Shown: one piece after another, positions 620-53,644 of the stretch
How the letters are laid out: each line of letters starts with the position of its first letter
Position numbering within the stretch: position 1 is the first letter of the stretch
Assembly: GCA_034520175.1 (NCBI GenBank)
Contig: JAXHNU010000028.1
Location: 74,252-138,251, forward strand
DNA: 64,000 nucleotides
Reading direction: 5' to 3'
From: Saprospiraceae bacterium
GTDB lineage: Bacteria > Bacteroidota > Bacteroidia > Chitinophagales > Saprospiraceae
Program-made: the position numbers and the translations under genes
The notes under the pieces: model-generated
What the model saw: only the letters and a program-made list of their open reading frames with translations
Databases searched by the model: none
What the model was told of the DNA's origin: nothing

Positions 620-803
620 TTTGAAACCATACATAAATTCAAAATACGCATTAAAAGGCACTTTTGCGCTCGCTTCGCTCGCGCAAAAGGAAGAGAGTGG
701 TTCATTTTTCGGGCAAAGCCCGAAAAATGAACCACATTCCCCCTCTCGCGCGAGCGAAGCGAGCGCGAGAACCAGCAGTTTAGATTTTATGTATGGTTTC
801 AAA
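620..803 (+). mobile_element. nested-palindrome MITE, type A, full length (184 bp)
   Basis: 18-nt termini TTTGAAACCATACATAAA / TTTATGTATGGTTTCAAA. Inner inverted repeat GCGCTCGCTTCGCTCGCGC / GCGCGAGCGAAGCGAGCGC. Central hairpin GGTTCATTTTTCGGGCAAAGCCCGAAAAATGAACC. Perfect 8-bp flanking duplication TTATGGGT at 612-619 and 804-811. Confidence 0.88.
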
Positions 804-964
804 TTATGGGTAAACAATGGTTGTTTGTAACAATGGAAGGTGAGGCGTCAAACAAAAAATAAAATACCCATTTTGATTGTTAACTGACATTATGCAGTCC
901 CTAAATTTTGAAATTAGATTTTCTTTAAAGATACAAAAAATGTCCATTATTTGATTAAAATTGG

Positions 965-1130
965 GTATTTACTTAGCCCATAGCTCGCTTCGCTCGCAAA
1001 AAAGGGGAATTTGGTTCGTTTTTCGGGTTTTGCCCGAAAAACGAACCAAATTCCCTTTTTGCGAGCGAAGCGAAGCGCGAAAAATAAACCACCTTTCCTC
1101 CTTTTGCACGAGCGAAGCGAGCGCAAAGGC
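965..1130. repeat. core element with GTATTTACTTAGCC arm plus an extra half core
   Basis: GCTCGCTTCGCTCGC ... GGTTCGTTTTTCGGGTTTTGCCCGAAAAACGAACC ... GCGAGCGAAGCGAAGCGC, followed by a second ...GAGCGAAGCGAGCGC half. Confidence 0.75.
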
Positions 1131-1195
1131 GTGTGCTGAAAAGTAGCGATTATTTATGAACAACTACTTGCAATGAAAATCAAGCATTCCCTTAG

Positions 1196-2173
1196 TCACG
1201 TAGGTATCACAACAGATTCTTTGAATGGCTTACGTGCTGTCAAGCCCAACATTTTGAACATATCCATATCCGTATCAAAATCTGGATTGGGCGTTGTCAA
1301 GAGTTTTTCTCCTGCAAAAATCGAATTTGCCCCCGCCATGAAGCACAAGGCTTGTTCTGCAATTGTCATATCGTTGCGACCCGCCGACAAGCGCACAACA
1401 CTTTTCGGCATAATCAACCGCGCTGTTGCAATCATGCGCAACATTTCGTCAATTTGTACTTTTGCGTTGTTCGCTAAAGGTGTTCCTGCTACGGGAACTA
1501 AGGCATTAATTGGCACGGAATCGGGGTGTTCGTCCATTGTTGAGAGCGTGTGCAGCATCTTAATACGGTCATCGTCGGTTTCGCCCAAGCCGATAATACC
1601 GCCACAACAAACCGACATTTTTGCCTTTTTTACGTTCTTCAACGTGTCCAAACGGTCATCAAAAGTGCGTGTTGTGATGATATTCCCGTAATTTTCTTCC
1701 GACGTATCAATATTGTGGTTGTAAGCAAAACAACCCGCCGCTTTCAGTTTTTCGGCTTGTTCGTAGGTCAACATGCCCAATGTGCAGCAAACTTCCATGC
1801 CCATATCGTTGACTTCCGACACCATTTCTAAAACGCGGTCAAAGTCCCGATTGTCGCGCACTTCACGCCAAGCTGCGCCCATGCACAAGCGCGATGCCCC
1901 ATTTGCTTTGGCAATTGCCGCCTGCGTTTTTACTTTTTCAACCGACATTAACGGCTGTACCTCAATATCGGTGTGGTAACGCGCCGCTTGTGGACAATAC
2001 GAACAGTCTTCTTTGCAGCCACCCGTTTTGATGGAAATTAAGCTGCTGACTTGCACCTCGCTGTACGCTTTATTTTGACGGTGAACTGTCGCGGCATCAA
2101 AAACTAAGTCCAATAAGGGACGGTTGTAGATGTTTTCGATTTCGGATAATGTCCAATTGTTTCTAATGACCAT
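1196..2173 (-). CDS. bioB: biotin synthase
   Basis: 325-aa ORF with the radical-SAM CxxxCxxC (GGCKEDCSYCPQ) and a full-length BioB-like layout (YNHNIDTS, GGIIGLGET). Confidence 0.93.
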   Translation of the reverse strand: MVIRNNWTLSEIENIYNRPLLDLVFDAATVHRQNKAYSEVQVSSLISIKTGGCKEDCSYCPQAARYHTDIEVQPLMSVEKVKTQAAIAKANGASRLCMGAAWREVRDNRDFDRVLEMVSEVNDMGMEVCCTLGMLTYEQAEKLKAAGCFAYNHNIDTSEENYGNIITTRTFDDRLDTLKNVKKAKMSVCCGGIIGLGETDDDRIKMLHTLSTMDEHPDSVPINALVPVAGTPLANNAKVQIDEMLRMIATARLIMPKSVVRLSAGRNDMTIAEQALCFMAGANSIFAGEKLLTTPNPDFDTDMDMFKMLGLTARKPFKESVVIPT

Positions 2174-2189
2174 TTTTTTTATTTTTTTT

Positions 2190-2316
2190 GTGATAACTTA
2201 GCCCGCGCTCGCTTCGCTTGCGTGGAAGGAGGAGAGTTGGTTCATTTTTCGAGCAAAGCCCGAAAAATGAACCAATCTTCTTTTGCGAGCGCAGAGAGTA
2301 ATAGGCTAAGTATTAC
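2190..2316. repeat. nested-palindrome element, type B (GTAATTACTTAGCC-type arms)
   Basis: GTGATAACTTAGCCCGCGCTCGCTTCGC ... central hairpin ... GGCTAAGTATTAC. It sits between the divergent bioB and tpiA genes. Confidence 0.8.
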
Positions 2317-2463
2317 ATTTTTTTTAAGTATTCGCAAATCGCTTAACTTTTGAAGCCGCAAAATTAGAAAAACTCACAAGAATCGGAAATAAAGAATTCA
2401 GAAAAGGCAAACACTTCTTGACACTAAAATTTCATTTTGATTTGGGAAACTCACGAGATAATG

Positions 2464-2471
2464 TATTTTTG
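2464..2471 (+). promoter_or_regulatory. candidate Bacteroidota -7 box (TAnnTTTG) upstream of tpiA
   Basis: TATTTTTG, 20 nt before the first ATG. Confidence 0.4.
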
Positions 2472-2490
2472 CGGCGAAATATGATACTTA

Positions 2491-3289: not shown

Positions 3290-3336
3290 GAGCCGTAGGC
3301 TCGACCCATATGTATATACACCGAGCCTACGGCTCT
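3290..3336. repeat. palindromic CCTACGG-type hairpin pair downstream of tpiA
   Basis: AGAGCCGTAGGCTCG (3290-3304) and CGAGCCTACGGCTCT (3322-3336) are exact reverse complements. Related short hairpins appear at about 3360-3377, 3392-3404, 41660-41810 and 51650-51730. Confidence 0.6.
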
Positions 3337-3520
3337 TAAATAATTGGTTTTAAACTTTCGGCGGATTGAAATCCGCCGCTACAAAATTGGTCATGCCTAC
3401 GGCATTTTTGGCACATCTGCGTGACATAAGTCAATTAGTTCTACTTTGTTCTTTGAACTGGCTCTTTTTCGCTCGAAAATCGCCCGAAAGTAATTTTTAG
3501 AGGTGAGCGTGTTTTTAAAT

Positions 3521-3704
3521 TTTGAAACCATACATAAATTCAAAATACGCATTAAAAGGCATTTTTGCGCTCGCTTCGCTCGCGCAAAAGGAGGAGAGGT
3601 GGTTCATTTTTCGGGCAAAGCCCGAAAAATGAACCACATTCCCCCTTCGCGCGAGCGAAGCGAGCGCGAAAACCAGCAGTTTAGATTTTATGTATGGTTT
3701 CAAA
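3521..3704 (+). mobile_element. nested-palindrome MITE, type A, full length (184 bp)
   Basis: Same termini and core as 620-803. Perfect 8-bp duplication TTTTAAAT at 3513-3520 and 3705-3712. It is inserted in the middle of another palindrome (GAGCGTGTTTTTAAA at about 3505-3519 and TTTAAAAACACGCTC at about 3737-3751). Confidence 0.88.
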
Positions 3705-3813
3705 TTTTAAATCAGAAAAATCTTCGATTTTTTTGATTTAAAAACACGCTCGCCCCGTAGATTTCTTCCAACAGGCGATTTTTGAGCGAAGCGAAAAAAG
3801 CCAGTAAATATCT

Positions 3814-5484: not shown

Positions 5485-5500
5485 AATATTGTAAATATTT

Positions 5501-5609
5501 GACGCGCTCGCTTCGCTCGCGGAAAGAGAGGAAGAGTGGTTCATTTTTCGGGCTTTGCCCGAAAAATGAACCACATTCCCCTTCCTCGCGCGAGCAAAGC
5601 GAGCGCGTC
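5501..5609. repeat. core-only element (109 bp)
   Basis: GACGCGCTCGCTTCGCTCGC ... GGTTCATTTTTCGGGCTTTGCCCGAAAAATGAACC ... GCGAGCAAAGCGAGCGCGTC. It lies between two convergent genes. Confidence 0.85.
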
Positions 5610-5970
5610 AAGTTAGAGCTTTCCGCGTTTGCCAGAATTGCCACAACAAAGCCACATCACACACCACTAAACCGCCAAATTCGCGGGTCAGTTCGATATA
5701 CGATTTTTCGGCTTTCATGGTTTCTACAATATTCGGCATACCCATTTTTATCCAAGCTATAAAATCGGGAATATACGTCAAAGTATAAACAGATAAGATG
5801 CTTAAACCAATCAAAATTAATGTTTTATTGTATTTTTGAACGGCTGCAAAGCCACATACTACGGCAACAAAACCGTAAATGGGTATCCAGAGATAAGGGT
5901 CGGGGTCGTTGTATTGAACGCCGAGAAATAAGAGAAAAATAATGCAGAGAATGACGTTTAAAATTTTCAT
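5608..5970 (-). CDS. small membrane protein, TMEM220-like
   Basis: 120 aa with 4 predicted TM helices and an N-terminal GVQYNDPDPYLWIPIYG motif. The stop codon lies in the end of the repeat at 5501-5609. Confidence 0.55.
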   Translation of the reverse strand: MKILNVILCIIFLLFLGVQYNDPDPYLWIPIYGFVAVVCGFAAVQKYNKTLILIGLSILSVYTLTYIPDFIAWIKMGMPNIVETMKAEKSYIELTREFGGLVVCDVALLWQFWQTRKALT

Positions 5971-7342: not shown

Positions 7343-7466
7343 GGTAATTAGTTAGATGTAAACAATTGCTTGATGGTTCATTTTCGGCTTCGTCGAAAAA
7401 TGAACTACATTCTCTTTTTCTGGGCGAGCGAAGTCTGTTTACATTCCGAAAGTCTTCGGGAGAGCG
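7343..7466. repeat. degenerate element, type C (CGGGATGTAAACAG module)
   Basis: GTAATTAGTTAG arm, central GGTTCATTTTCGGCTTCGTCGAAAAATGAAC, GCGAGCGAAG, and CTGTTTACATTCCGAAAGTCTTCGGGAGAGC, as in 14048-14200 and 51304-51463. Confidence 0.6.
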
Positions 7467-9042: not shown

Positions 9043-9175
9043 GGTAACTGTTTACCACACGCTCGCTTCGCTCGCGCAGAAAGGGGGAATGTGGTTCATT
9101 TTTCGGCTTTGCCGAAAAATGAACCAGCTCTTTTCTGTCGTTGTGCGAGCAATAGGCACGCAGCTAAATAGTTAC
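9043..9175. repeat. nested-palindrome element, type B variant
   Basis: GTAACTGTTTACC arm, GCTCGCTTCGCTCGCGC, central GGTTCATTTTTCGGCTTTGCCGAAAAATGAACC, and AAATAGTTAC arm. Confidence 0.75.
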
Positions 9176-9491: not shown

Positions 9492-9660
9492 GTAATTACT
9501 TAGTGAGGGATGGGCATAACCCAAAAGCGTTTTTTGCATCTCGCGCTCGCTTCGCTCGCGCGAGGGGGGAGGATGTGGTTCATTTTTCGGGCAAAGCCCG
9601 AAAAATGAACCACCTTTTCTCTTTTTAGCGAGCGAAGCGAGCGCGTGACTAAGTAATTAC
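9492..9660. repeat. nested-palindrome element, type B with extra GGGCATAACC module
   Basis: GTAATTACTTAG...GATGGGCATAACCCAAAAGCGTTTTTTGCATCTCGCGCTCGCTTCGCTCGCGC ... central hairpin ... GTGACTAAGTAATTAC. Confidence 0.8.
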
Positions 9661-10183: not shown

Positions 10184-10268
10184 AAAATTAATATTTCCTA
10201 TCTTATCAGCCGAAGTACAACTAAGTCTGGATTTGTTGCGTCAATAATTTTCATTTTTTGTTTTTTCA

Positions 10269-10413
10269 TTTGAAACCATACATAAATTCAAAATACGCAT
10301 TAAAAGGCACTTTTGCGCTCGCTTCGCTCGCGCAAAATGAACCACATTCCCCCTCTCGCGCGAGCGAAGCGAGCGCGAGAACCAGCAGTTTAGATTTTAT
10401 GTATGGTTTCAAA
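10269..10413 (+). mobile_element. nested-palindrome MITE, type A, internally deleted (145 bp)
   Basis: Both TTTGAAACCATACATAAA termini are present. The left half of the central hairpin is deleted. Perfect 8-bp duplication TTTTTTCA at 10261-10268 and 10414-10421. Confidence 0.85.
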
Positions 10414-11054: not shown

Positions 11055-11270
11055 GTAACTACTTACTTGAGAGATGGGCATAACCTAAAAGCGTTTTTTG
11101 CATCTCGCGCTCGCTTCGCGCGCGCGAGGGAGGGAATGTGGTTCGTTTTTCGGCTTCGCCGAAAAACGAACCACGTCTCCTCCCTTTTGCGCGAGCGAAG
11201 CGCGCGCAAAACATCTGTTTTTAATCAAAAAACGATGTTTTTAGGTTATGCCCACTCCTCAACTACTTAG
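11055..11270. repeat. composite type B element with GGGCATAACC / GGTTATGCCC outer module
   Basis: GTAACTACTTAC ... GATGGGCATAACCTAAAAGCG ... core with GGTTCGTTTTTCGGCTTCGCCGAAAAACGAACC ... TTAGGTTATGCCCAC ... AACTACTTAG. Confidence 0.75.
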
Positions 11271-11390
11271 TTTGTTGCTCGCTTCGCTCGCAAAAAAGGG
11301 GAAAGTGGTTCGTTTTTCGGGCTTTGCCCGAAAAACGAACCACATCTTCTCCCACGCGCGAGCGAAGCGAGCGCGTGGCTAAATAATTAC
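11271..11390. repeat. type B element in tandem with the previous one
   Basis: GCTCGCTTCGCTCGC ... GGTTCGTTTTTCGGGCTTTGCCCGAAAAACGAACC ... GCGAGCGAAGCGAGCGCGTGGCTAAATAATTAC. Confidence 0.8.
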
Positions 11391-12367: not shown

Positions 12368-12550
12368 TTTGAAACCATACATAAAATCCAAACGCTGCTT
12401 TTCACGCTCGCTTCGCTCGCGCGAGAAGGGGAATGTGGTTCATTTTTCGGGCTTTGCCCGAAAAATGAACCACCTCTCCTCCCTTTGCGCGAGCGAAGCG
12501 AGCGCAAAGGCGTACTTTTATGCACTTTAGGATTTTATGTCTGGTTTCAA
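12368..12550 (-). mobile_element. nested-palindrome MITE, type A (diverged right arm, no flanking duplication)
   Basis: Left terminus TTTGAAACCATACATAAA. The right terminus is diverged (TTTATGTCTGGTTTCAAG). Its terminal CTTGAAACC on the minus strand supplies the TGA stop of the photolyase gene. Confidence 0.75.
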
Positions 12551-14025
12551 GTTCTGGCTTCATTTGGAATAACGTGTTTTGCCAAAATACGCTTTCCAAG
12601 CGTTTTACTTTCATCGCTTTTTTTCGTTGCCCACAATTGATCGCTCGCTTTTCTGGCGGAGGTTTTCAAGTCAATTATGGGTTTTAGATAGTCTTTTTCA
12701 AGGTCAAAACTGTAAAAAAGGGCTTCTAAAGCGGGCGTTTTTGATGGTTCGTGAATCAAGTGTGCGGGTAAATTTTGCAATTCGGGTACCCATTTTTTGA
12801 TAAAAACGCCTTCTGGGTCGTGTTTTTCAGAATTGTGCGTGGGGTTGTAAATCCGAATCGTGTTTATGCCCGTTACGCCTGCTTGCATTTGAAATTGAGA
12901 ATAATGAATGCCGGGTTCGTAATCCAAAAACATTTGTGCCAGATAGCCCACACCCGCCTGCCACGGTTGCCAAAGTGTGTGGGTGAGAAATGAAACGACC
13001 ATTGCCCGCATCCGAAAATTTAAGTATCCTGTCGTTTTTACGCACCGCATACACGCATCAATAAGTGGAAAACCCGTTTTGCCCTCTTTCCACGCTTGTA
13101 GGAGGGCATCGTCTGTTTCAGCCCGCAGGTGGTCGTAGGCAGCATTGACGTTGTGAAATTCCATTTCTACTTCGCTTTCAAACTTTTGCATAAAATGATC
13201 GCGCCAACGCAGCCTGTCCAAGAAGTTTTCAAGATTTCGCTTGCCGATTGGATAGGAAGACGCCTGTGCGTATTGAAAAACCTGCCGACTCGACAGGCAA
13301 CCCCAAGCCAAATAAGGCGAAATACGCCCACAATGAAAGCGGGCTGCTTCGGGTTTTGAAATGTTCTTCATGTACTCCTTTCCTCTGTTTTCAAGGAAAG
13401 ATTTGAGGTATTTCCAAGCCGCAATTTCACCACCCTGTTGAAAATCAGAATTGCGTTTAGTGATGTCACTCGGCAAAAGTGACCCCCTCAGTAGGACGTT
13501 GAGTTCTTGTGAGATGAGTTGATTGGCTGCTTTAAATTGCGTTAAATCAGGGTTTTGCATGGGTTTTTCGGCTATTTCCAGCCAGTCATCTTTCCATGTT
13601 TTCCGATTTTTCAAGCCCCGATAAATACCACTCATTCGGCTTTCCTGCCATTGAACACCGTGTTTTTTAAACAGTTTTTTTAAGCGTTTATCTCGTGCGT
13701 AGGTGAAGTTTGTCCCAATTTCTTCGTATGAAAAAACGGTATTTATTGTATAATTTCTCATCAATTGTTCAAAGACAAAATCTGATTCGTTATGACAAAA
13801 TACGATTTCTAAATTATTGATTTTTAAACGATTATTCAAATCTACTAAAGATTCGTACACAAACCGCCAATGCCGTACATTGCTGTCATACTGCTGCATG
13901 AGTGAGGGTTCAAAGATGTATAAGAGCAGTGTTACCCCCTCAGTATTGGACGCATTTTTCAAAGGTTCGTGGTCATGTAAACGCAAGTCTCTTTTAAACC
14001 AGACGATATTTAAGGCTTGTTTCAT
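12547..14025 (-). CDS. cryptochrome/photolyase family protein (FAD-binding)
   Basis: 492 aa. N-terminal [16 protein letters not shown] and a FAD-binding region ...[10 protein letters not shown]...[12 protein letters not shown]...WRDHF...[11 protein letters not shown]. The stop codon lies in the terminal repeat of the element at 12368-12550. Confidence 0.85.
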
Positions 14026-14047: not shown

Positions 14048-14200
14048 GTAATTATTTAGCCCATAGCTCTCCCGAAGGTATCGGGATGTAAACAGACTTC
14101 GCCTACAAAAAGGGGAATGTGGTTCATTTTTCGGGCTTTGCCGAAAAATGAACCACATTCTTCCGATGCGCGATGCAAGAGCGCGTGATTAAGTAATTAC
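14048..14200. repeat. type C element (GTAATTA arms, CGGGATGTAAACAG module)
   Basis: GTAATTATTTAGCCCATAGCTCTCCCGAAGGTATCGGGATGTAAACAGACTTCGC ... central hairpin ... GCGCGTGATTAAGTAATTAC. Confidence 0.78.
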
Positions 14201-14577: not shown

Positions 14578-14709
14578 GTAATTACTTAGCCCGCGCTCGC
14601 TTCGCTCGAGCGGAAGGAGGAGGGGTGGTTCATTTTTCGGGCTTTGCCCGAAAAATGAACCATATTCCCCTCTTTTGCGAGAGAAGCGAGCAATAGGCTA
14701 AGTAATTAC
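14578..14709. repeat. nested-palindrome element, type B
   Basis: GTAATTACTTAGCCCGCGCTCGCTTCGCTCG ... GGTTCATTTTTCGGGCTTTGCCCGAAAAATGAACC ... GGCTAAGTAATTAC. Confidence 0.85.
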
Positions 14710-16463: not shown

Positions 16464-16928
16464 TTGCGGAACAGTTACGGGCTTGCGAGGAAAAACAGAG
16501 CTAATTTTTCATTACCCAATTTAGGTATTTTAACGGCTTTTGCCTCTTCGCTTTGCTGCATAATGCCCGTTTTAGCTATTGTCGCAGGTACAAGCGGCTT
16601 GGCTTCTACTTTTTCGTGGCTCGAACCCGCAAGACCTTTTTTTATCGGGGCAACCGTTTTAGTATTGGGCTTTGCGTGGTATCAACAACTCAAACCGAAG
16701 CCGATTGATGACTGCGGTTGTCCCGTCGAGCAAAAAAAACCTTTTATGCAAACCAAGACTTTTTTAAGTGGCATCACAATCGTTTCAGCCTTGTTGCTGT
16801 CGTTTCCGAGTTACGCACACGTCTTTTTTCCAAAATCGGAAAGCCAAACCGTTGTGAATACATCAGCCGCCGTAGAAAAAGTTGAGTTCAAAATTGAGGG
16901 GCGTGTATTGCAGCTTCCAAAGTATTAG
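16464..16928 (+). pseudogene. truncated duplicate of merTP (membrane MerT-like part only; ATG start and HMA domain lost)
   Basis: 16503-16897 is collinear with 19519-19913 and nearly identical to it. The ATG of the intact copy is replaced, and the homology breaks exactly before the GMTCESC metal-binding motif (VEFKIEGRVLQLPKY* versus VEFKIDGMTCESCEHH). Confidence 0.7.
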
Positions 16929-17172: not shown

Positions 17173-18189
17173 TTAAAAATTGTGTTTTTCTTTAATTTGT
17201 AGAACAAAATCAACGGAAACGTCAAAATCTTCGGCAATTTCTTCTGTTGTCAATTTACCTCTTTTCAAGGCAATGATGATATTTTTAGTTTTTTCTTCAG
17301 TTTTACCTTTGATTATACCTTCTGTAAGACCTTCAATTTTGCCTTCAATTTTGCCTTTGATTATACCTTCTGTAAGACCTTCCAATTTACCATCACCAAA
17401 AGACGTATCAATCACATTTTTTAAATCGCGGTAGTATTTCAAGCTGTCTTCGTATTGGTCAAGCTCTTCTTTCGTAAATCGGGCTATTTCTGCCGCTTCA
17501 AAAAGTTTATCAAATATCTTTTCTTGCAACTTGCTCGGACGTTCTGTGAACGAAGATAAATGTTTCAGAACATACAACCATTTGTCATAGGTTGTTTCTA
17601 ATTCATCTTCTGTTTTCGTAAAATGAGGCATTTCTAAGTAGATAAATGTCAATTTATCATAAAAAACATGGCAATCTTGGTCTTTTAGCTGAACTTCATG
17701 CCGCACTTTTTTTGCCACAATGGGTTGTGTGGTGGTCACTTTGGCTGCCGATTTCTCCTTTTTTCCCTTTGTTTTCTTGTGCGTTTCACTGTCGTCGCTG
17801 AACGCAAAATCTAAAATTCCGACTGTGAAAACTTCGGATAACTTAAAATCCCAATCGCCCCGCTGTGCTTGCTCTTGTATCGGAAAAGAAGCGTAAAATA
17901 CACTTCTATCTTTAAAATAGTTCTGTTTTGCTTTTTGCATTTCTACAACAAAACGCTCGTTATTTGACCCGATGCAGTACAAGTCAAATATCGCTTTGCG
18001 GTCAACTTCTGTTGCACCTACGTGTTCATTTTTACGATAGGTCAAATCGGTAATTTTACGTTGCTTGGGTAAAATAGCTTCATTCAGAAAGTCAATCAGC
18101 AAGTCTTTATTCAGTTCTGTACCGAACAGTTTTTTGAATCCAAAATCCGTAAATGGATTGATATATTTATCTTTTAAAGCCATTATCAT
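17173..18189 (-). CDS. Rpn family recombination-promoting nuclease / PD-(D/E)XK putative transposase
   Basis: 338 aa. The N-terminal YINPFTDFGFKKLFGTE...LLIDFLN is typical of the Bacteroidota PD-(D/E)XK (YhgA/Rpn-like) family. The C-terminal region has an internal peptide repeat, EGLTEGIIKGKIEGKIEGLTEGIIKGK. Confidence 0.8.
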   Translation of the reverse strand: MIMALKDKYINPFTDFGFKKLFGTELNKDLLIDFLNEAILPKQRKITDLTYRKNEHVGATEVDRKAIFDLYCIGSNNERFVVEMQKAKQNYFKDRSVFYASFPIQEQAQRGDWDFKLSEVFTVGILDFAFSDDSETHKKTKGKKEKSAAKVTTTQPIVAKKVRHEVQLKDQDCHVFYDKLTFIYLEMPHFTKTEDELETTYDKWLYVLKHLSSFTERPSKLQEKIFDKLFEAAEIARFTKEELDQYEDSLKYYRDLKNVIDTSFGDGKLEGLTEGIIKGKIEGKIEGLTEGIIKGKTEEKTKNIIIALKRGKLTTEEIAEDFDVSVDFVLQIKEKHNF

Positions 18190-18201
18190 TGTTTTTTATT
18201 T

Positions 18202-18386
18202 TTTGAAACCATACATAAAATCTAAGCTGATGATTCTCTGCGCTCGCTTCGCTCGCGCGAGAGGGGAATGTGGTTCATTTTTCGGGCAAAGCCCGAAAAA
18301 TGAACCACCTCTCCTCCTTTTGCGCGAGCGAAGCGAGCGCAAAAGTGCCTTTTAATGCGTATTTTGAATTTATGTATGGTTTCAAA
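18202..18386 (-). mobile_element. nested-palindrome MITE, type A, full length (185 bp)
   Basis: Termini and core as in 620-803, in inverted orientation. Perfect 8-bp duplication TTTTATTT at 18194-18201 and 18387-18394. It sits 13 bp upstream of the Rpn gene start. Confidence 0.88.
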
Positions 18387-31849: not shown

Positions 31850-32003
31850 GTAATTACTTAGTCACGCGCTCACTTCGCTCGCGCGAGGGAGGGAAATGTG
31901 GTTCGTTTTTCGGCGAAGCCGAAAAACGAACCACGTCTCCTGCCTTTTGCGCGAGCGAAGCGAGCGCAAAAGTGCCTTTTAATGCGTATTTTGAATTTAT
32001 GTA
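31850..32003. repeat. hybrid element: type B left arm + type A right arm (truncated terminus)
   Basis: GTAATTACTTAGTCACGCGCTCAC ... GGTTCGTTTTTCGGCGAAGCCGAAAAACGAACC ... GCGCAAAAGTGCCTTTTAATGCGTATTTTGAATTTATGTA. The final TGGTTTCAAA is missing. Confidence 0.75.
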
Positions 32004-32444: not shown

Positions 32445-32629
32445 TTTGAAACCATACATAAAATCTAAACTGCTGGTTCTCGCGCTCGCTTCGCTCGCGC
32501 GAGAGGGGGAATGTGGTTCATTTTTCGGGCAAAGCCCGAAAAATGAACCACCTCTCTTCCTTTTGCGCGAGCAAAGCGAGCGCAAAAGTGCCTTTTAATG
32601 CGTATTTTGAATTTATGTATGGTTTCAAA
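32445..32629 (-). mobile_element. nested-palindrome MITE, type A, full length (no flanking duplication seen)
   Basis: Both termini and the core are intact. The flanks ATAAATAT and TTCGTGAA do not match. Confidence 0.8.
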
Positions 32630-37600: not shown

Positions 37601-37773
37601 GTCGTCAGTTTGAGGTATTCGTAGCCTTGTTGGATAAGGTCTTGGATAAATTCTTTCTCCAAAGCCGCTTCGCTTTGATGGATAGCAGACGGTTCGTTCG
37701 CCTCCGCGTACTTGAAGTAGCTATCCAGGACGATGAAATTATTGGATTCTGCGATGGTGTTATATGGTGTCAT
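34671..37773 (-). pseudogene. hsdR: type I restriction enzyme R subunit (type IC, EcoR124I-like) split by one frameshift
   Basis: Two abutting ORFs, 36697-37773 (358 aa, HTTGSGKT Walker A) and 34671-36695 (674 aa, DECHRSQ). On the minus strand ...GAA TAC CAA CGA TTT CTC GCC CGA TAG reads EYQRFLAR*. Dropping one base near 36706-36709 gives [19 protein letters not shown], continuous with the second ORF. Confidence 0.85.
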
Positions 37774-40699: not shown

Positions 40700-40828
40700 A
40701 TTTTATTTTTTTTAAAATCATGTAATTACTTAGTTCTCAACTTCCAAAACGCACAATAGAGGGGAATAGTTACGTTTTTTTATTGTTGCCAATAGCCCTG
40801 CAAAGATTACACTTTTTTATATTTTTTC

Positions 40829-40961
40829 GTAACTATTTGCCTCACGCTCGTTTCGCTCGCGCAGAAAGGGGGAAGGTGGTTCATTTTTCGGGCTTTGCCC
40901 GAAAAACGAACCACCTCTCCTCACTCGCGCAAGCGAAGCGAGCGCGTGACTAAACAATTAA
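40829..40961. repeat. nested-palindrome element, type B variant
   Basis: GTAACTATTTGCCTCACGCTCGTTTCGCTCGCGC ... GGTTCATTTTTCGGGCTTTGCCCGAAAAACGAACC ... GCGCGTGACTAAACAATTAA. Confidence 0.78.
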
Positions 40962-41850: not shown

Positions 41851-41918
41851 GTAATTACTTAGTCACGCGCTCGCTTCGCGCGCGATGGAGGAACGTGGTT
41901 CGTTTTTCGGCGAAGCCG
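41851..41918. repeat. left half of a type B element, truncated in the central hairpin loop
   Basis: GTAATTACTTAGTCACGCGCTCGCTTCGCGCGCG ... GGTTCGTTTTTCGGCGAAGCCG. It then changes abruptly to the TAACTGAGGAGG... module at 41919. Confidence 0.75.
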
Positions 41919-41958
41919 TAACTGAGGAGGTGCCAAGTAACACGCTGGGCTGCCTTTT
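41919..41958 (+). repeat. same module (copy 4, diverged), abutting a truncated repeat element
   Basis: TAACTGAGGAGGTGCCAAGTAACACGCTGGGCTGCCTTTT. Confidence 0.8.
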
Positions 41959-47071: not shown

Positions 47072-47156
47072 ATTAGAAAAATGAATTTATGGTTCAATTA
47101 TTTAAAAAAAGCATAAAACGCTAAATTATAGTATCTTTTTAATGATTCAAGGTCAT

Positions 47157-47248
47157 CCGCTCGTTTCGCTCGCGCAAAGAGGTGAATGTGGTTCATTTTT
47201 CGGCGAAGCCGAAAAATGAACCACCTCTGCTCCTGCCGTTGTGCGAGC
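47157..47248. repeat. degenerate core element
   Basis: CCGCTCGTTTCGCTCGCGC ... GGTTCATTTTTCGGCGAAGCCGAAAAATGAACC ... GTGCGAGC. Confidence 0.65.
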
Positions 47249-47343
47249 AAAATACACGGAAGCTCAATATTTACCTTGATTCATTAAAAAGGTACAAATT
47301 ATTTTTGTTTTTTCTAAAAATCGCTTATTTTTGTAAAAATAAT

Positions 47344-47528
47344 TTTGAAACCATACATAAATTCAAAATACGCATTAAAAGGCACTTTTGCGCTCGCTTC
47401 GCTCGCGCAAAAGGAAGAGAGGTTGTTCATTTTTCGGGCAAAGCCCGAAAAATGAACCACATTCCCCCTCTCGCGCGAGCGAAGCGAGCGCGAGAACCAG
47501 CAGTTTAGATTTTATGTATGGTTTCAAA
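47344..47528 (+). mobile_element. nested-palindrome MITE, type A, full length (185 bp)
   Basis: Termini and core intact. Perfect 8-bp duplication AAAATAAT at 47336-47343 and 47529-47536. Confidence 0.88.
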
Positions 47529-50105: not shown

Positions 50106-50237
50106 GTAGTTACTTAGCCTATTGCTCGCTTCGCTCGCAAAAGAGGGGAATGTGGTTCATTTTTCGGGCAAAGCCCGAAAAATGAAACACCTCTCCGCTT
50201 CTCCGCGAGCGAAGCGAGCGCGTGACTAAATATTTAC
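50106..50237. repeat. nested-palindrome element, type B
   Basis: GTAGTTACTTAGCCTATTGCTCGCTTCGCTCGC ... central hairpin ... GCGAGCGAAGCGAGCGCGTGACTAAATATTTAC. Confidence 0.8.
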
Positions 50238-50254
50238 TATTTTAAAAAAAGAAT

Positions 50255-50439
50255 TTTGAAACCATACATAAAACCTAAACTGCTGCTTCTCGCGCTCGCT
50301 TCGCTCGCGCGAGAAGGGGGAATGTGGTTCATTTTTCGGGCAAAGCCCGAAAAATGAAACACCTCTCCCCCTTTGCGCGAGCGAAGCGAGCGCAAAGGGG
50401 TACTTTTATGCGTTTTAGAATTTTATGTATGGTTTTAAA
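50255..50439 (-). mobile_element. nested-palindrome MITE, type A, full length (185 bp)
   Basis: Termini TTTGAAACCATACATAAA / TTTATGTATGGTTTTAAA. Perfect 8-bp duplication AAAAGAAT at 50247-50254 and 50440-50447. It is inserted in the last codons of the UbiA gene. Confidence 0.88.
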
Positions 50440-51287
50440 AAAAGAATTAAAAAACACAAACTCATACACACCGACGCTATCAAATTCATCAGCATGGTGT
50501 TTCTAAAATTGGCATTTTGCGTGTTTTTAAAAACCTGCAAAAACCACCAAATAAAGAACAAAGTTGGCGGTAAAAAACAGGCTTGCAAAATAAAGAATGA
50601 GGACAGTTGCCCCGTTGCATTAAAATACAAAAAATAGGACAACATGCACAATCCGAACATCAGAGCCGAAAAAAAAAACGTACCTCTGTAACCCAATTTA
50701 TAGCTAATTGTTGTAACGCCGTCCCGAAGGTCTTCTTGGTGTTGATAGATTTGGGTCAAAGGATAAACCCCCGCAATCTGAAAAGAGGCAGCGAGTAGAA
50801 CACACATATATGTTGTATTCCATTGAAAATCATCGTTATTGACCGCTACACTTGTCATAAAATAAGTAAAAGCACCTTGAAAAATGGCGACAACTAAAAA
50901 GCCTCCGTAAGCGTATTTTTTCAAACGAATTTGTCGCGCACTGTAAGCCCGCGACATTGTGACGCACACACATAGGCACAATGCGAACAACGGTTTCACA
51001 AAAACGAAAGCTAAAATGATGGCGAGCATGTCCATAAAAAGCGTTGCATAAAACAATTGCTCAGTCGGCATCGGCGGTTTTTCTAAGCCGCCAATGGGTG
51101 TTTCGTCGCGGTCAACGTAACTATTGTAACCATTACTGGCGGGGTAAATCAGCAAATGAATGATAAAAAAAGCCCACCATGCCTTCACCGTATTCAGCGA
51201 TTCGGCTTGACTGAGTGCCAACAAAAATACGGGCATAAGGAAAAAAGAAAACGGAATTCTAAGAAGTTTTATCGTGTCACGCCACAT
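50415..51287 (-). CDS. UbiA family prenyltransferase
   Basis: 290-aa polytopic protein with an Asp-rich NGYNSYVDRDETP motif. The last codons (..KPYIKF*) lie inside the element at 50255-50439. Confidence 0.78.
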   Translation of the reverse strand: MWRDTIKLLRIPFSFFLMPVFLLALSQAESLNTVKAWWAFFIIHLLIYPASNGYNSYVDRDETPIGGLEKPPMPTEQLFYATLFMDMLAIILAFVFVKPLFALCLCVCVTMSRAYSARQIRLKKYAYGGFLVVAIFQGAFTYFMTSVAVNNDDFQWNTTYMCVLLAASFQIAGVYPLTQIYQHQEDLRDGVTTISYKLGYRGTFFFSALMFGLCMLSYFLYFNATGQLSSFFILQACFLPPTLFFIWWFLQVFKNTQNANFRNTMLMNLIASVCMSLCFLILFLKPYIKF

Positions 51288-51303: not shown

Positions 51304-51463
51304 GTAATTACTTAGCCCATAGATCTCCCTAAGGCTTTCGGGATGTAAACAGATTTCGCGCGCAAAAAAAAGGAATGTGGTTCGTTTTTCGGGCAAAGCC
51401 CGAAAAACGAACCACATTCCCTTTTTTTGCGCGAGCGAAGCGAGCGCGTGACTAAGTAATTAC
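51304..51463. repeat. type C element
   Basis: GTAATTACTTAGCCCATAGATCTCCCTAAGGCTTTCGGGATGTAAACAGATTTCGC ... GGTTCGTTTTTCGGGCAAAGCCCGAAAAACGAACC ... GCGCGTGACTAAGTAATTAC. Confidence 0.8.
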
Positions 51464-51734
51464 GTTTAATTTATGATTTTTACCGATGCAAAATAGCAGT
51501 TTAGTCATTACAAAAGTATCACAATGTATCTTGAAAATACTAAAATGCGCCAAGATTCAGAAATTTATTTTGACACCCTACATAAAATTCCTTTCTGTAA
51601 ATGATTTGTGCATTTACCACATGTTGACACGCTGTGTCAAGGGGAACACTTGGTTTTAGTACTTGTTATAAACATTTTGAGCCTAACGGCTCAATAAACG
51701 CACGAACTTGATGAGCCGTTAGGCTCAAAATATT

Positions 51735-51866
51735 GTAATTACTTAGCCCGTAGCTCGCTTCGCTCGCAGGAGAGAGGAGGGGTGGTTCGTTTTTCGGGCT
51801 TTGCCCGAAAAACGAACCACATTTCCCTTTTTTGCGAGCGAAGCGAGCTATGGGCTCAGTAATTAA
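51735..51866. repeat. nested-palindrome element, type B
   Basis: GTAATTACTTAGCCCGTAGCTCGCTTCGCTCGC ... GGTTCGTTTTTCGGGCTTTGCCCGAAAAACGAACC ... GCGAGCTATGGGCTCAGTAATTAA. Confidence 0.8.
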
Positions 51867-51973
51867 TCTAAGTTTTGTGGTATAAAAACGCGGAACCTCG
51901 CTCCGAAAAAAACTCCCCGCGCCGCCGAAGGCGGCGCGTTTTGAGTGACTACCACAAAATTTAGATTAATTAC
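51859..51973. repeat. second palindromic element family, compact copy (115 bp)
   Basis: 24-nt inverted termini GTAATTAATCTAAGTTTTGTGGTA / TACCACAAAATTTAGATTAATTAC (1 mismatch) around the hairpin GCGCCGCCGAAGGCGGCGC. Confidence 0.7.
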
Positions 51974-52116
51974 GTATTTTCGTCGTTTTTTTTAGGTAGT
52001 TGGTAAAATTTTTAAAGGATTAAAGAGCGATAAAGTGCATTTTTGCAAGTGTTTTGAAACATTACGCCGTAAATATTTGACTTGATGCAAGTTGACAATC
52101 CATGCTTTATTGTTTA

Positions 52117-52167
52117 CACCTTTTCTTCCCTCCGCGCGAGCGAAGCGAGCGCGGGCTAAGTCATTAC
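52117..52167. repeat. right half of a type B element
   Basis: ...CTTCCCTCCGCGCGAGCGAAGCGAGCGCGGGCTAAGTCATTAC with no central hairpin or left half. Confidence 0.65.
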
Positions 52168-52182
52168 TTAAAATTAACTATT

Positions 52183-52767
52183 ATGCAAGAAACCGCGCCT
52201 TTTTTAAACCAAGTATTCAATTCTAAAAGTTTTAAAAGAGAAGACTTAGAGACCATTTTCAAGCAATACAAAAGAGTAGAATTTCGTAAAAACGATTATT
52301 TTATCCAACAGGGTAACGTTGCTGGCTACTATTATTTTATGGAAAGCGGTTTTGCGCGGTCTTACGCGATTGATTTGGAGGGCAACGACATTACCACCAA
52401 ATTTTTTAGTCCTATGGATATTGTGATTGACTGGTACTCCTACTTTCTGAAAAAACCTTGTCGAGAAGACATTCAAGCCATTACGCCTTGCGTGGCGTGG
52501 AAAATCCATTTTGAAGATTTTATGAAATTATTTCACATCGAAGCCTTTCGAGAAGTGGGGCGTACCCGCTTGGTCAACAACTTTTTTGAGTTGAAAAATC
52601 ATTCCGTCTCTGTGATTGTTGACCCCGCAAAAGACCGCTATTTGCAACTCGTAAAAGACAAACCTGATTTGTTGCAAAATGTTCCTTTGAAACAAATTGC
52701 CACGTATTTGGGCATCACAGACACCTCTTTAAGCCGTATTAGAAAAGAAATTGCTGAAAAAAAATGA
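52183..52767 (+). CDS. Crp/Fnr family transcriptional regulator
   Basis: cNMP-binding domain plus HTH (LKQIATYLGITDTSLSRIRKE). The ATG at 52183 is preferred, because the upstream part of the track ORF is read out of a half repeat element. Confidence 0.85.
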   Translation: MQETAPFLNQVFNSKSFKREDLETIFKQYKRVEFRKNDYFIQQGNVAGYYYFMESGFARSYAIDLEGNDITTKFFSPMDIVIDWYSYFLKKPCREDIQAITPCVAWKIHFEDFMKLFHIEAFREVGRTRLVNNFFELKNHSVSVIVDPAKDRYLQLVKDKPDLLQNVPLKQIATYLGITDTSLSRIRKEIAEKK

Positions 52768-53465
52768 ATCCAACTTTCACTTCTGCTGTGCCTTTTGGCA
52801 TCTCTCTTTTGTTCTTAATTCTTATCCCAATTCCTGTCTTTTTGATAGCTTTATTGGGCAAAAAAGGTGCGCCGACCCCTCAGTATAATAGCGTATTTTG
52901 GACTATTTTGGGCTTCTACGGCGTGTATTTTACCTACGTAGCCGTGGCTTGTTTCAAAGGCGTATTTGCCGAAGAGAGTCTGCCGCCCAAGATTTTGCAA
53001 GTTTCTACCTTGCCCTTGCTGCTGTTTTTGACTCTTGTGGTTTTCAATTTGCCGATTTGCAAAAAGATTGTGGCGAATATCCAAACGGCTGATTTGGTGC
53101 GGCTGCATGGCTTTCGGCTTATCGGTGGCTTTTTCATTATCTTGGCATTTTACGGCGCAATACCACTAACATTTGCATTGATTGCGGGTTTAGGTGATAT
53201 TTTGACAGCAATTACGAGTGTTTTTGTCGCAAACGCCATTGAAACCAATAAACCTTACGCCCGAAAGTTGACCCTTGTGTGGAACACTTTTGGTTTTTTG
53301 GACATCATTTGCATTGCGGTCATGGCTTTTGTTTTGACAAAAATTGCGATAGAAACGGGCGCACAAGGTGTTGATACTTTGGGGCAATTCCCGTTTTGTT
53401 TCATTCCTGCTTTTGCACCGCCGACCATTCTTTTTTTACACCTTATCATATATCTAAAAATTTGA
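52764..53465 (+). CDS. hypothetical polytopic membrane protein
   Basis: 233 aa, about 6 TM. ATGA coupling to the Crp gene. The TGA stop is supplied by the TTTGAAACC terminus of the element at 53461. Confidence 0.65.
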   Translation: MNPTFTSAVPFGISLLFLILIPIPVFLIALLGKKGAPTPQYNSVFWTILGFYGVYFTYVAVACFKGVFAEESLPPKILQVSTLPLLLFLTLVVFNLPICKKIVANIQTADLVRLHGFRLIGGFFIILAFYGAIPLTFALIAGLGDILTAITSVFVANAIETNKPYARKLTLVWNTFGFLDIICIAVMAFVLTKIAIETGAQGVDTLGQFPFCFIPAFAPPTILFLHLIIYLKI

Positions 53466-53644
53466 AACCATACATAAAATCTAAACTGCTGGGTTTCGCG
53501 CTCGCTTCGCTCGCGCGAAGGGGAATGTGGTTCATTTTTCGGGCAAAGCCCGAAAAATGAACCACCTTCTCCTCCTTTTACGCGAGCGAAGCGAGCGCAA
53601 AAATGCCTTTTAATGCGTATTTTGAATTTATGTATGGTTTCAAA
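53461..53644 (-). mobile_element. nested-palindrome MITE, type A, full length (184 bp)
   Basis: Termini and core intact. The flanks are ATCTAAAAA (53452-53460) and ATCGAAAAA (53645-53653), which match at 8 of 9 positions. Confidence 0.82.

What the first reader, a model, noticed from the sequence alone, without database searches (positions are those of the whole stretch)
620..53644. MITE family with 18-nt termini, a three-layer nested palindrome and 8-bp target-site duplications
Nine copies carry the termini TTTGAAACCATACATAAA / TTTATGTATGGTTTCAAA around GCGCTCGCTTCGCTCGCGC - purine-rich spacer - GTGGTTCATTTTTCGGGC(AAA/TTT)GCCCGAAAAATGAACCAC - spacer - GCGCGAGCGAAGCGAGCGC. The copies are about 184 bp and the two arms differ, which gives each copy an orientation.

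Six copies have perfect 8-bp flanking duplications:
- TTATGGGT at 612/804
- TTTTAAAT at 3513/3705
- TTTTTTCA at 10261/10414
- TTTTATTT at 18194/18387
- AAAATAAT at 47336/47529
- AAAAGAAT at 50247/50440
One more copy has an 8-of-9 match (53452/53645). Two have none (12368, 32445).

This is direct evidence of transposition into AT-rich targets. No transposase that could mobilise them is in the window. Counting the arm variants, I found about 27 copies totalling roughly 4 kb, about 6 percent of the window. One copy (3521-3704) is inserted in the centre of a different palindrome. One (10269-10413) has an internal deletion.
Basis: seen in the sequence. Interest (0 to 1): 0.72.

Follow-up and report, generated by a model that had tools for sequence, protein, structure and literature searches.

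The report
Hairpin-core MITE families in Saprospiraceae
This stretch of a Saprospiraceae bacterial genome carries two families of tiny non-coding "hitch-hiker" transposons (MITEs) that share one hairpin-forming core; the finding is real and well supported, but it is an ordinary kind of element and its transposase was not found.

Summary
There are nine ~184-bp copies with perfect 18-nt inverted termini (TTTGAAACCATACATAAA). Six have perfect 8-bp AT-rich target-site duplications (P about 1e-17 against an AT-rich null). One copy has a 39-bp internal deletion and one is nested in a host palindrome.

They are a second, older MITE family (type B, termini GTAATTACTTAGYC...GRCTAAGTAATTAC). Nine of its ten complete copies have a flank match of at least 7 of 8 bases. 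Type B carries the same ~100-bp hairpin core as type A.

The type A terminus also bounds MITEs in other Saprospiraceae genomes and in one metagenome contig. Seven of the eight copies from two genomes have perfect 8-bp duplications, and their palindromic interiors are unrelated to this one. The core and the type B terminus were found only in this lineage.

All 27 loci (4.0 kb, 6.3% of the window) lie between genes or clip gene ends. No DDE transposase is in the window, and no full-length parent element turned up in any collection searched.

Verdict: genuine non-autonomous DNA transposons, a new member of a known kind. The modular sharing of the core and its near-invariant inner stem are of modest extra interest.

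The parts
620..803 (+). Type A MITE, 184 bp. TSD TTATGGGT at 612-619 and 804-811.
3521..3704 (+). Type A MITE, 184 bp, TSD TTTTAAAT. Nested in the left arm of a host palindrome (about 3459-3810). Excising it restores the arm.
10269..10413 (+). Type A MITE, 145 bp, with a 39-bp internal deletion between AAAA microhomologies. TSD TTTTTTCA.
12368..12551 (-). Type A MITE, the oldest copy (86-90% identical to the others), right terminus mutated, no TSD. Its terminus supplies the TGA stop of the photolyase ORF (12547-14025).
18202..18386 (-). Type A MITE, 185 bp, TSD TTTTATTT. Lies 12 nt upstream of the Rpn-family gene.
32445..32629 (-). Type A MITE, 185 bp, 97% identical to copy 620, no TSD.
47344..47528 (+). 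Type A MITE, 185 bp, TSD AAAATAAT.
50255..50439 (-). Type A MITE, 185 bp, TSD AAAAGAAT. The last 25 nt of the UbiA-family ORF (50415-51287), including its stop codon, lie inside the element.
53461..53644 (-). Type A MITE, 184 bp. Flanks match 8 of 9 (ATCTAAAAA / ATCGAAAAA). Its terminus supplies the TGA stop of ORF 52764-53465.
2190..2316 (.). Type B MITE (termini GTGATAACTTAGCC / GGCTAAGTATTAC). Flanks match 7/8, T-run target.
9044..9175 (.). Type B MITE with diverged termini. Perfect 8-bp TSD TTTTGAAG.
9492..9660 (.). Type B MITE with an extra ~36-bp module (GGGCATAACCCAAAAGCGTTTTTTGCATCTC). Flanks match 7/8.
11055..11390 (.). Type B composite with two cores and extra modules, 336 bp. Perfect 8-bp TSD TTTATTTT.
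14048..14200 (.). Type B MITE with a hairpin module replacing part of the outer stem. Flanks match 7/8.
14578..14709 (.). Type B MITE, 132 bp, perfect termini GTAATTACTTAGCC. Flanks match 7/8.
40829..40961 (.). Type B MITE, 133 bp. Perfect 8-bp TSD ATTTTTTC.
50106..50237 (.). Type B MITE, 132 bp. Perfect 8-bp TSD TATTTTAA. Lies 17 nt from type A copy 50255.
51304..51463 (.). Type B MITE, 160 bp. Flanks match 7/8 (GTTTGATT / GTTTAATT).
51735..51866 (.). Type B MITE, 132 bp, no TSD (3/8).
965..1150 (.). B/A chimera: type B left terminus, a full core, then a second half-core with a fragment of the type A arm.
31850..32003 (.). B/A chimera: type B terminus on one side, type A arm with a truncated terminus (TTTATGTA only) on the other.
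5491..5619 (.). Type B-like copy between convergent genes, with a degenerate right terminus.
47135..47292 (.). Core-bearing copy with only one type B-like terminus, sitting in the centre of another host palindrome (TTTTTAATGAWTCAAGG arms).
41851..41925 (.). Truncated type B copy: left terminus and half of the core.
52124..52167 (.). Type B right-half remnant, at the start of the longest-ORF call 52102-52767.
7372..7440 (.). Degenerate core fragment.
40722..40776 (.). 55-bp mini element with type B-like termini and no core.
17173..18189 (-). Rpn-family PD-(D/E)XK nuclease / 'putative transposase' gene. It is the only transposase-annotated gene in the window. It lies outside the MITE's TSD and probably plays no part.

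Best explanation
The window comes from a metagenome-assembled Saprospiraceae (Bacteroidota) genome. [quoted passage not shown]

Type B has about 10 complete copies of 127-336 bp plus remnants, with termini GTAATTACTTAGYC...GRCTAAGTAATTAC.

Both families are non-coding. Both insert into AT-rich, often T-run, intergenic DNA and duplicate 8 bp of target. That is the signature of a DDE-type transposase making cuts staggered by 8 bp (inferred). The enzyme must act in trans from elsewhere in the genome, because none is encoded in the window (shown for the window only).

The two families share a homologous ~100-bp quasi-palindromic core: outer 19-bp GC-rich stems, purine/pyrimidine spacers, and an 18-bp inner hairpin whose 16-pair stem is the part that is near-invariant. 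Two B/A chimeras suggest that the interior has been exchanged between the two shells, probably by recombination within the shared core (inferred).

Type A is young: most copies are 94-99% identical and have perfect duplications. Type B is older: its termini have diverged and many of its duplications match only 7 of 8.

The type A terminus is the conserved, transposase-recognised part. In other Saprospiraceae genomes the same terminus bounds quite different palindromic interiors.

Several effects on the host are likely but untested. A transcript crossing an element would contain a very stable hairpin. Three copies supply stop codons that replace the last few native codons of a gene. Many copies sit 12-31 nt upstream of predicted start codons.
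For: Type A termini and duplications:
- Terminus enrichment of 19 hits against 0.28 expected.
- Six of nine perfect, all-different, 90% AT 8-bp duplications, P about 8e-18.

Type B:
- Terminus found 30 times against 8.6 expected.
- Flank matches are 8/8 in 4 copies and 7/8 in 5 of 10 complete copies. Against a null built by cross-pairing flanks of different copies, which allows for T-runs, P is 2e-4 for the perfect matches and 2e-8 for at least 7/8.

Other genomes:
- The same 18-mer bounds MITEs of 103, 217, 227 and 249 bp in two other Saprospiraceae genomes. Seven of those eight have perfect 8-bp duplications.
- It also bounds a 205-bp element in one metagenome contig.
- All of these have unrelated interiors.

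Empty sites:
- Within the window, excising copy 3521 restores the arm of the host palindrome.
- The element is absent between fpg and the photolyase gene in the relative with 86% protein identity. There the photolyase keeps about five more native C-terminal residues.

Non-coding and intergenic:
- All 27 loci lie outside Pfam-supported genes or clip at most 25 nt of a gene end. One remnant, 52124-52167, overlaps the 5' end of a longest-ORF call.
- About 50 ORFs were annotated and none is a DDE transposase.

Structure:
- z = -15.9 for RNA and -15.0 for DNA.
- 33 conserved pairs, with compensatory AU to GC changes in 6 copies and GC to UA in 2.

Lineage restriction:
- The core and the type B terminus are absent from all 86 other loci fetched, including about 31 kb from the nearest relatives, and from viral contigs.
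Against: No autonomous parent element with either terminus was found in any search:
- The metagenome scan returned 52 loci and was complete.
- The viral contig scan gave only chance matches, and the plasmid search gave none.
- None of these contained an element longer than 249 bp.
The transposase family and the cut-and-paste or copy-out chemistry are therefore inferred from the duplication length alone.

Two type A copies (12368, 32445) and one type B copy (51735) have no duplication.

No same-species strain was available, so no clean orthologous empty site was seen.

The inner 16-bp stem is far more conserved than neutral decay of dead copies would predict. Among non-A copies it is 94% identical pairwise, against about 48% for the spacers. 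This hints at something beyond passive selfish DNA. Part of the contrast may be an alignment artefact in the low-complexity spacers.
Confidence: 0.9

Rival explanations
1. The elements are mobile, but the shared hairpin core is a functional module that the host or the transposon keeps under selection. It could be a bidirectional terminator or RNA-stability element, or a protein-binding site. The two transposon shells would then be vehicles spreading one cis-acting module. This adds to the MITE explanation rather than replacing it.
For: - The inner stem arms are 94% identical among diverged non-A copies, while the adjacent spacers are about 48% and the outer stems 67-82%.
- 16 inner pairs are essentially invariant, and the changes that occur are compensatory.
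- The hairpin is followed by a pyrimidine-rich tract on both strands, and several copies score as terminator-like.
- About 10 loci lie within 51 nt of a stop codon, several of them between convergent genes.
- The same core sits in two shells with unrelated termini.
Against: - The tract after the stem is C/T-mixed rather than a clean U-run.
- About nine copies lie just upstream of start codons, where a terminator would do harm.
- Descent from a few master copies, plus poor alignment of the low-complexity spacers, could produce the conservation contrast.
- The compensatory changes may be one or two inherited events.
- No Rfam family matches.
- There are no expression data.
Confidence: 0.15
2. 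These are REP/REPIN- or BIME-like palindromic units spread by a RAYT (HUH tyrosine transposase) or by recombination, not by a DDE transposase. The flanking repeats would be incidental.
For: - The core is a pair of inverted GC-rich 19-mers forming a long hairpin.
- The loci are intergenic, mosaic and modular, including a dimer and extra modules. This resembles BIMEs and REPINs (own knowledge of those families).
Against: - Every complete core sits inside a shell with terminal inverted repeats and an 8-bp duplication that differs from copy to copy. REP/REPIN insertion does not create such duplications (own knowledge).
- The duplication statistics are overwhelming.
- No Y1/HUH transposase gene was found among the roughly 50 annotated ORFs.
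- The type A terminus moves with unrelated interiors in other genomes.
Confidence: 0.03
3. The elements are mobilised by the Rpn-family PD-(D/E)XK nuclease ('putative transposase') encoded 12 nt from copy 18202, rather than by a DDE enzyme.
For: - It is the only transposase-annotated gene in the window (PF12784 at 2.4e-71, TIGR01784 at 6.8e-23).
- It directly abuts a young copy.
- No DDE parent was found anywhere.
Against: - The gene lies outside the copy's perfect duplication and has no terminus on its far side.
- One adjacency among 27 loci is what chance would give.
- Rpn proteins are not known to produce inverted-repeat-bounded insertions with fixed-length duplications (own knowledge).
- The ORFs next to MITEs in the other genomes share no multicopy protein.
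Confidence: 0.03
4. The flanking 8-mers are chance matches in AT-rich DNA, and the copies spread by duplication or recombination rather than transposition.
For: The targets are low-complexity A/T runs, where short matches are commoner. Cross-pairing of type B flanks gives 3% perfect matches.
Against: - Six of nine perfect for type A, against a 6.8e-4 background and 0 of 72 cross-pairs.
- Nine of ten at 7/8 or better for type B, P = 2e-8 against the cross-pair null.
- Seven of eight perfect in other genomes.
- The host palindrome arm is restored on excision.
Confidence: 0.01

Closest known systems
Prokaryotic MITEs in general. [quoted passage not shown]
   Same: Size of 127-336 bp, 14-18-bp inverted termini, 8-bp duplications, no coding capacity, many copies, intergenic, strongly folding.
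   Different: No parent insertion sequence was identified. These specific sequences are not in any searchable paper. Whether they appear in the bulk Bacteroidota MITE catalogue of PMC11602168 (81,380 different MITEs) was not checked.
Porphyromonas gingivalis BrickBuilt, MITEPgRS/MITE464, MITE239 and MITE700 (PMC4596501)
   Same: These are also Bacteroidota MITEs. Different families share nearly identical termini while their interiors are unrelated. An interior repeat was 'trapped' and spread by the MITE. Locations are intergenic.
   Different: The P. gingivalis elements match IS5-family insertion sequences (ISPg1, 3, 4, 9) and carry tandem direct repeats. The elements here have a nested palindrome interior and an 8-bp duplication. 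They also show the converse pattern: one interior shared by two sets of unrelated termini.
MITECca01 of the Cardinium endosymbiont (PMC9769881)
   Same: A Bacteroidota MITE of about 240 bp, lineage-restricted, found in a repeat-rich genome.
   Different: MITECca01 is demonstrably derived from an IS982-family parent (ISCca4) in the same genome. No parent was found here.
IS66-family insertion sequences, as a candidate parent for type B
   Same: IS66 members have terminal inverted repeats that start GTAAGCG, make 8-bp direct repeats, and occur in Bacteroidetes (PMC11946415). Type B termini start GTAA and make 8-bp duplications.
   Different: Only the first four bases match the family consensus. 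No IS66 genes (tnpA, tnpB, tnpC) are in the window. The type A terminus (TTTG...) does not fit. This is a lead only.
Neisseria Correia elements and enterobacterial ERIC, REP, BIME and REPIN repeats (own knowledge)
   Same: Abundant intergenic hairpin-forming repeats with modular or mosaic variants. Correia elements are known to affect transcription and RNA processing.
   Different: Correia elements duplicate TA. REP, BIME and REPIN elements have no terminal inverted repeats or duplications and depend on RAYTs. There is no sequence similarity.

Membership tests
MITE (non-autonomous DNA transposon) | Short (about 50-800 bp) with no transposase coding capacity | tested here: met
   Sizes run from 127 to 336 bp. 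The ORFs that cross the elements appear to be artefacts of the repeats. No transposase domain was found in the flanking ORFs.
MITE (non-autonomous DNA transposon) | Terminal inverted repeats of at least 10-15 bp | tested here: met
   Type A has 18/18 perfect termini in 6 of 9 copies. Type B has 14-nt termini, found 30 times against 8.6 expected.
MITE (non-autonomous DNA transposon) | Target-site duplications of fixed length whose sequence differs between copies | tested here: met
   The length is 8 bp. Type A: 6 of 9 perfect (P about 8e-18). Type B: 4 perfect and 5 at 7/8 out of 10 (P = 2e-8). Other genomes: 7 of 8 perfect.
MITE (non-autonomous DNA transposon) | Multiple dispersed copies | tested here: met
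   27 loci in 64 kb, making up 6.3% of the window.
MITE (non-autonomous DNA transposon) | An autonomous insertion sequence with matching termini that supplies the transposase | tested here: inconclusive
   None is in the window. None is among the 26 genome loci, 52 metagenome loci or 4 viral loci, and the plasmid search found nothing.
MITE (non-autonomous DNA transposon) | Empty sites carrying a single copy of the duplicated target | tested here: inconclusive
   A within-window empty site is met: excising copy 3521 restores the palindrome arm. The orthologous test is only approximate. The relative at 86% protein identity lacks copy 12368, but its intergenic DNA cannot be aligned.
REP / REPIN (mobilised by a RAYT) | Insertion without target duplication, and association with a RAYT gene | tested here: not met
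   8-bp duplications are present. No Y1/HUH gene was found among the annotated ORFs.
IS66-family derivative (type B only) | Termini starting GTAAGCG, 8-bp direct repeats, tnpA/tnpB/tnpC in the parent (PMC11946415) | tested here: inconclusive
   The 8-bp repeats are met. Only GTAA of the terminus consensus is met. No parent genes are available to test.
Rfam RNA families | A match at or above the family gathering score | tested here: not met
   There are no hits at gathering threshold across the whole window. Below threshold there are mainly generic hairpin (microRNA-precursor) matches and a few other chance hits.
Intrinsic terminator | A GC-rich stem directly followed by a U-run | tested here: inconclusive
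   Some inner hairpins pass a loose consensus scan, which found 30 sites against 18.3 expected in 15 kb. The tails are C/U-mixed, and many copies lie upstream of genes.

The most novel reading that the evidence does not exclude
The ~100-bp hairpin core, and above all its near-invariant 16-bp inner stem GTGGTTCATTTTTCGG/CCGAAAAATGAACCAC, may not be passive cargo. It could be a selected cis-acting module, such as a bidirectional terminator or RNA-processing site, or the binding site of a host or transposition factor. On this reading it has been captured by two transposon shells with unrelated termini and spread across the intergenic regions of one Saprospiraceae lineage. MITEs would then be acting as interchangeable delivery vehicles for a regulatory hairpin.
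Probability: 0.15. Interest if true: 0.55.

Novelty: new member of a known kind. Interest (0 to 1): 0.33.

Why it matters
Practical value:
- These MITEs make up about 6% of the DNA here. They sit within a few bases of start and stop codons and rewrite three gene ends.
- They therefore matter for annotating Saprospiraceae genomes. They create spurious ORFs, alter C-termini and break assemblies: in the other genomes several copies sit at contig ends.
- They also matter for any study of gene regulation in this group, which is common in activated sludge and aquatic habitats.

Conceptual value:
- The same terminus carries different interiors in different lineages, and the same interior sits in two different shells within one genome.
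- This is a tidy natural example of modular MITE evolution.
- The 18-bp terminus could serve as a probe for a still unidentified transposase that makes 8-bp duplications.

Tried and rejected
Search for a parent insertion sequence:
The only real elements were MITEs of 249 bp or less in two Saprospiraceae genomes. The other hits were chance coding matches encoding F-E-T-I-H-K.
- A metagenome scan used the type A left arm followed by a base that is not G, to exclude MITEs. It found nothing.
- A metagenome scan with the 18-mer returned 52 loci and was complete. Only one real element was found, a 205-bp MITE in L084.
- Viral contigs gave four chance hits. Plasmids gave none.
- All-against-all BLAST of ORFs from the MAG loci found no multicopy protein.

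Orthologous empty sites:
- Exact look-up of window proteins failed because the source genome is not indexed.
- The nearest relatives are 78-86% identical at the protein level, and their intergenic DNA cannot be aligned.

Literature: searching papers for the terminus and core sequences gave only chance primer matches.

Rfam: no family matched.

Other readings considered and dropped:
- Integron attC sites. The surrounding genes are housekeeping genes in mixed orientation, and duplications are present.
- CRISPR. There is no regular spacing.
- Site-specific recombination. The duplications differ from copy to copy.

Copies without a duplication: I looked for a partner that would indicate recombination between copies 12368 and 32445. 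Their flanks do not complement each other in either orientation (by eye, from the flank sequences).

Inner-hairpin loop: seven of eight type A copies have AAA on the window's + strand. This is not significant (two-sided binomial P about 0.07).

Full report
**Source and setting**

The window has 41% G+C and is 75% coding. It carries ordinary bacterial housekeeping genes: bioB, tpiA, rtcB, fpg, a photolyase gene, a type I restriction-modification system, a type III polyketide synthase and others. Its Fpg protein is 100% identical to an NCBI protein from a 'MAG: Saprospiraceae bacterium' on a 147,254-bp contig. The next relatives are only 78-86% identical. There are no tRNA genes and no Rfam families at gathering threshold.

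**Checking the observation**

The 18-mer TTTGAAACCATACATAAA occurs 19 times at up to 3 mismatches, against 0.28 expected.

All six claimed perfect 8-bp flanking duplications are present. So are the 8-of-9 match at copy 53461 and the two copies with no duplication.

For AT-rich 8-mers spaced 184 bp apart in this window, the chance of an 8/8 match is 6.8e-4. That gives P of about 8e-18 for six or more of nine. Pairing the left flank of one copy with the right flank of another never gives 8/8 in 72 pairs. The duplicated 8-mers all differ and are 90% A+T.

Copy 10269 lacks 39 bp between short AAAA repeats.

The element folds into one nearly perfect hairpin. As RNA it reaches -109.5 kcal/mol (z = -15.9), and as DNA -69.8 kcal/mol (z = -15.0).

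Counting every locus with the inner hairpin gives 27 loci, 4,020 bp and 6.3% of the window.

BLAST and repeat analysis show the ~100-bp core at 18 more loci that lack the 18-nt termini. The core runs from GCGCTCGCTTCGCTCGCGC to GCGCGAGCGAAGCGAGCGC.

Aligning all 27 loci with their flanks shows that most of these carry different termini: GTAATTACTTAGYC on the left and GRCTAAGTAATTAC on the right. That pattern occurs 30 times against 8.6 expected.

These 'type B' elements have their own 8-bp duplications:
- Perfect at 9044-9175 (TTTTGAAG), 11055-11390 (TTTATTTT), 40829-40961 (ATTTTTTC) and 50106-50237 (TATTTTAA).
- 7 of 8 at five more copies.
- Absent at one copy.

Type B targets are T-runs, so I used a strict null built by cross-pairing flanks of different type B copies. 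That null gives 3.3% perfect matches and 11% at 7/8 or better. The observed counts give P = 2e-4 and P = 2e-8.

Type B is therefore an independent and older MITE family. It also has variants:
- a copy with an extra ~36-bp module (9492-9660);
- a two-core composite of 336 bp that carries a single perfect duplication (11055-11390);
- copies in which a small hairpin module replaces part of the outer stem (14048-14200, 51304-51463);
- truncated copies;
- a 55-bp mini element with no core (40722-40776).

Two loci, 965-1150 and 31850-32003, are B/A chimeras.

**Evidence from elsewhere**

The genuine hits were all in two other Saprospiraceae MAGs.

In those MAGs the same terminus bounds elements of 103, 217, 227 and 249 bp. 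Their interiors are unrelated to the one here and are themselves modular palindromes. Seven of the eight complete copies have perfect 8-bp duplications.

The remaining genome hits, all four viral hits, and 51 of the 52 metagenome hits are chance matches, many of them coding for F-E-T-I-H-K. The single real metagenome hit, L084, is a 205-bp element with yet another interior.

The core and the type B terminus are absent from all 86 fetched loci. That includes about 31 kb from the closest relatives, where roughly 13 copies would be expected at this window's density. They are also absent from viral contigs.

So the type A terminus is the conserved part across lineages. The interior is specific to each lineage, and the expansion seen here is recent.

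**Empty sites**

A clean orthologous comparison was not possible. Two partial tests support insertion.

1. Copy 3521 lies in the left arm of a host palindrome. Removing the element plus one TTTTAAAT rebuilds GAGCGTGTTTTTAAATCA, the exact reverse complement of the intact right arm at 3734-3751. It also restores a 55-nt near-perfect hairpin.

2. In the relative with 86% protein identity (L030), no element lies between fpg and the photolyase gene. There the photolyase ends ...HVIPNERREVS. In the window it ends ...HVIPNEART, with the last codon and the TGA stop supplied by the MITE terminus.

**Genomic context**

All 27 loci lie between genes or clip a gene end.
- Three type A copies supply the stop codon of the adjacent ORF (ORF ends at 12547, 50415 and 53465).
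- About ten loci lie within 51 nt downstream of a stop codon, several of them between convergent genes.
- About nine lie only 12-31 nt upstream of a predicted start codon. These distances rest on longest-ORF start predictions.
- This pattern fits a preference for A/T runs, which in this genome flank both ends of genes.

**The missing transposase**

Pfam and NCBIfam scans of about 50 ORFs found no DDE transposase.

The only transposase-annotated gene is an Rpn-family PD-(D/E)XK nuclease at 17173-18189, 12 nt from copy 18202. It lies outside that copy's perfect duplication and has no terminus on its other side, so I regard the adjacency as coincidental.

No element longer than 249 bp with these termini was found in any collection. 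ORFs near the MITEs in the other MAGs share no multicopy protein.

Mobilisation in trans by a DDE enzyme that makes 8-bp staggered cuts is therefore inferred, not shown. From my own knowledge, insertion-sequence families that make 8-bp duplications include IS66, IS1595, ISL3 and IS256.

For type B, the GTAA start of the terminus plus the 8-bp duplication fits the published IS66 description: terminus starting GTAAGCG, 8-bp direct repeats, present in Bacteroidetes (PMC11946415). This is only a lead.

**The core**

I aligned 23 complete cores and derived a consensus structure.
- There are 33 conserved pairs.
- The 16-bp inner stem is nearly invariant.
- Compensatory changes occur at two pairs: AU to GC in six copies and GC to UA in two.

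Among the 15 non-A copies, pairwise identity is 94% for the inner stem arms, about 48% for the spacers and 67-82% for the outer stems.

This unevenness is the most intriguing feature. It could reflect selection on the hairpin as a terminator, a processing site or a protein-binding site. It could also reflect descent from a few master copies combined with poor alignment of the low-complexity purine/pyrimidine spacers.

The hairpin loop (AAA or TTT) is inverted relative to the arms in four of eight type A copies. The perfect palindrome therefore flips.

**Comparison with what is known**

The elements meet the published MITE definition (PMC11602168).

The closest precedents in Bacteroidota are:
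- the P. gingivalis MITEs, in which families share termini but not interiors and an interior repeat has been trapped (PMC4596501);
- the Cardinium MITECca01, derived from an IS982-family element (PMC9769881).

REP, REPIN and BIME elements share the mosaic, hairpin-forming and intergenic character. They lack terminal inverted repeats and duplications, so membership fails.

The specific sequences occur in no paper in the searchable library. A census of 46,051 Bacteroidota genomes has already catalogued 81,380 different MITEs (PMC11602168), so MITEs as such are commonplace in this phylum.

**Verdict**

This is a new member (in fact two linked members) of a known kind.

Interest is modest. It rests on the exchange of one core between two shells, on a terminus that is kept across lineages while the interior changes, on the very well conserved inner stem, and on the unidentified transposase.

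Noticed in passing
window 34671-37773 (- strand): The type I restriction enzyme R subunit is split into two adjacent ORFs: 358 aa (N-terminal part, 36697-37773) and 674 aa (34671-36695). Homologues are a single protein of about 1,035 aa. This is probably a frameshift or nonsense pseudogene, or a sequencing error.
   Followed up: partly
window 54291-54498: A tandem array of a 45-46-nt unit, about 4.6 copies, 92% matching. Each unit starts with the hairpin GCACGGACTAAAGTCCGTGC. It lies just downstream of the DUF1569 gene and is unrelated to the MITEs.
   Followed up: no
window 16503-16802 and 19519-19818: A 300-nt direct repeat, 94% identical, lying within two MerT-like genes (16464-16928 and 19318-20109). 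This looks like a local gene duplication.
   Followed up: no
L003, L006, L012, L016, L026 compared with L022 (other Saprospiraceae MAGs): A 22-nt palindromic module (CCTGTCTGCCGACAAAGGCAGG, or its flipped form) is inserted exactly between GAA and TTC of GAATTC sites. It occurs at different positions inside MITEs that are otherwise alike, and it makes no duplication. This may be a tiny hairpin insertion process acting within MITE interiors.
   Followed up: partly
window, inner hairpin loops of type A copies (e.g. 714-716, 18287-18289): The loop (AAA or TTT) is inverted relative to the element's arms in 4 of 8 type A copies. As a result, 7 of 8 read AAA on the window's + strand whatever the element's orientation. 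The palindrome centre flips. The strand bias is not significant (P about 0.07).
   Followed up: partly
window 3290-3336 and 51680-51728: A different small hairpin repeat pair, GAGCC(T)ACGGCTC ... GAGCCGT(T)AGGCTC, is present in intergenic DNA. It may be a separate short palindromic repeat family.
   Followed up: no
window 3459-3810 and 47135-47292: Two MITE copies sit inside larger host palindromes whose arms contain motifs such as TTCGCTTCGCTC or TTTTTAATGAWTCAAGG. Palindromic or terminator-like DNA may be a preferred target, or these may be further unrecognised shells.
   Followed up: partly
window 17295-17391 and 38565-38611: The Rpn-family gene contains an internal 24/48-nt tandem repeat. 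A perfect 12-nt repeat (GCTGTAAGCTCT, 3.9 copies) lies at 38565-38611.
   Followed up: no
L030 about 3300: The photolyase gene of the relative with 86% protein identity has an in-frame TAA about 23 codons before the conserved C-terminus (...[30 protein letters not shown]). This is either a sequencing error or a recent nonsense mutation.
   Followed up: no
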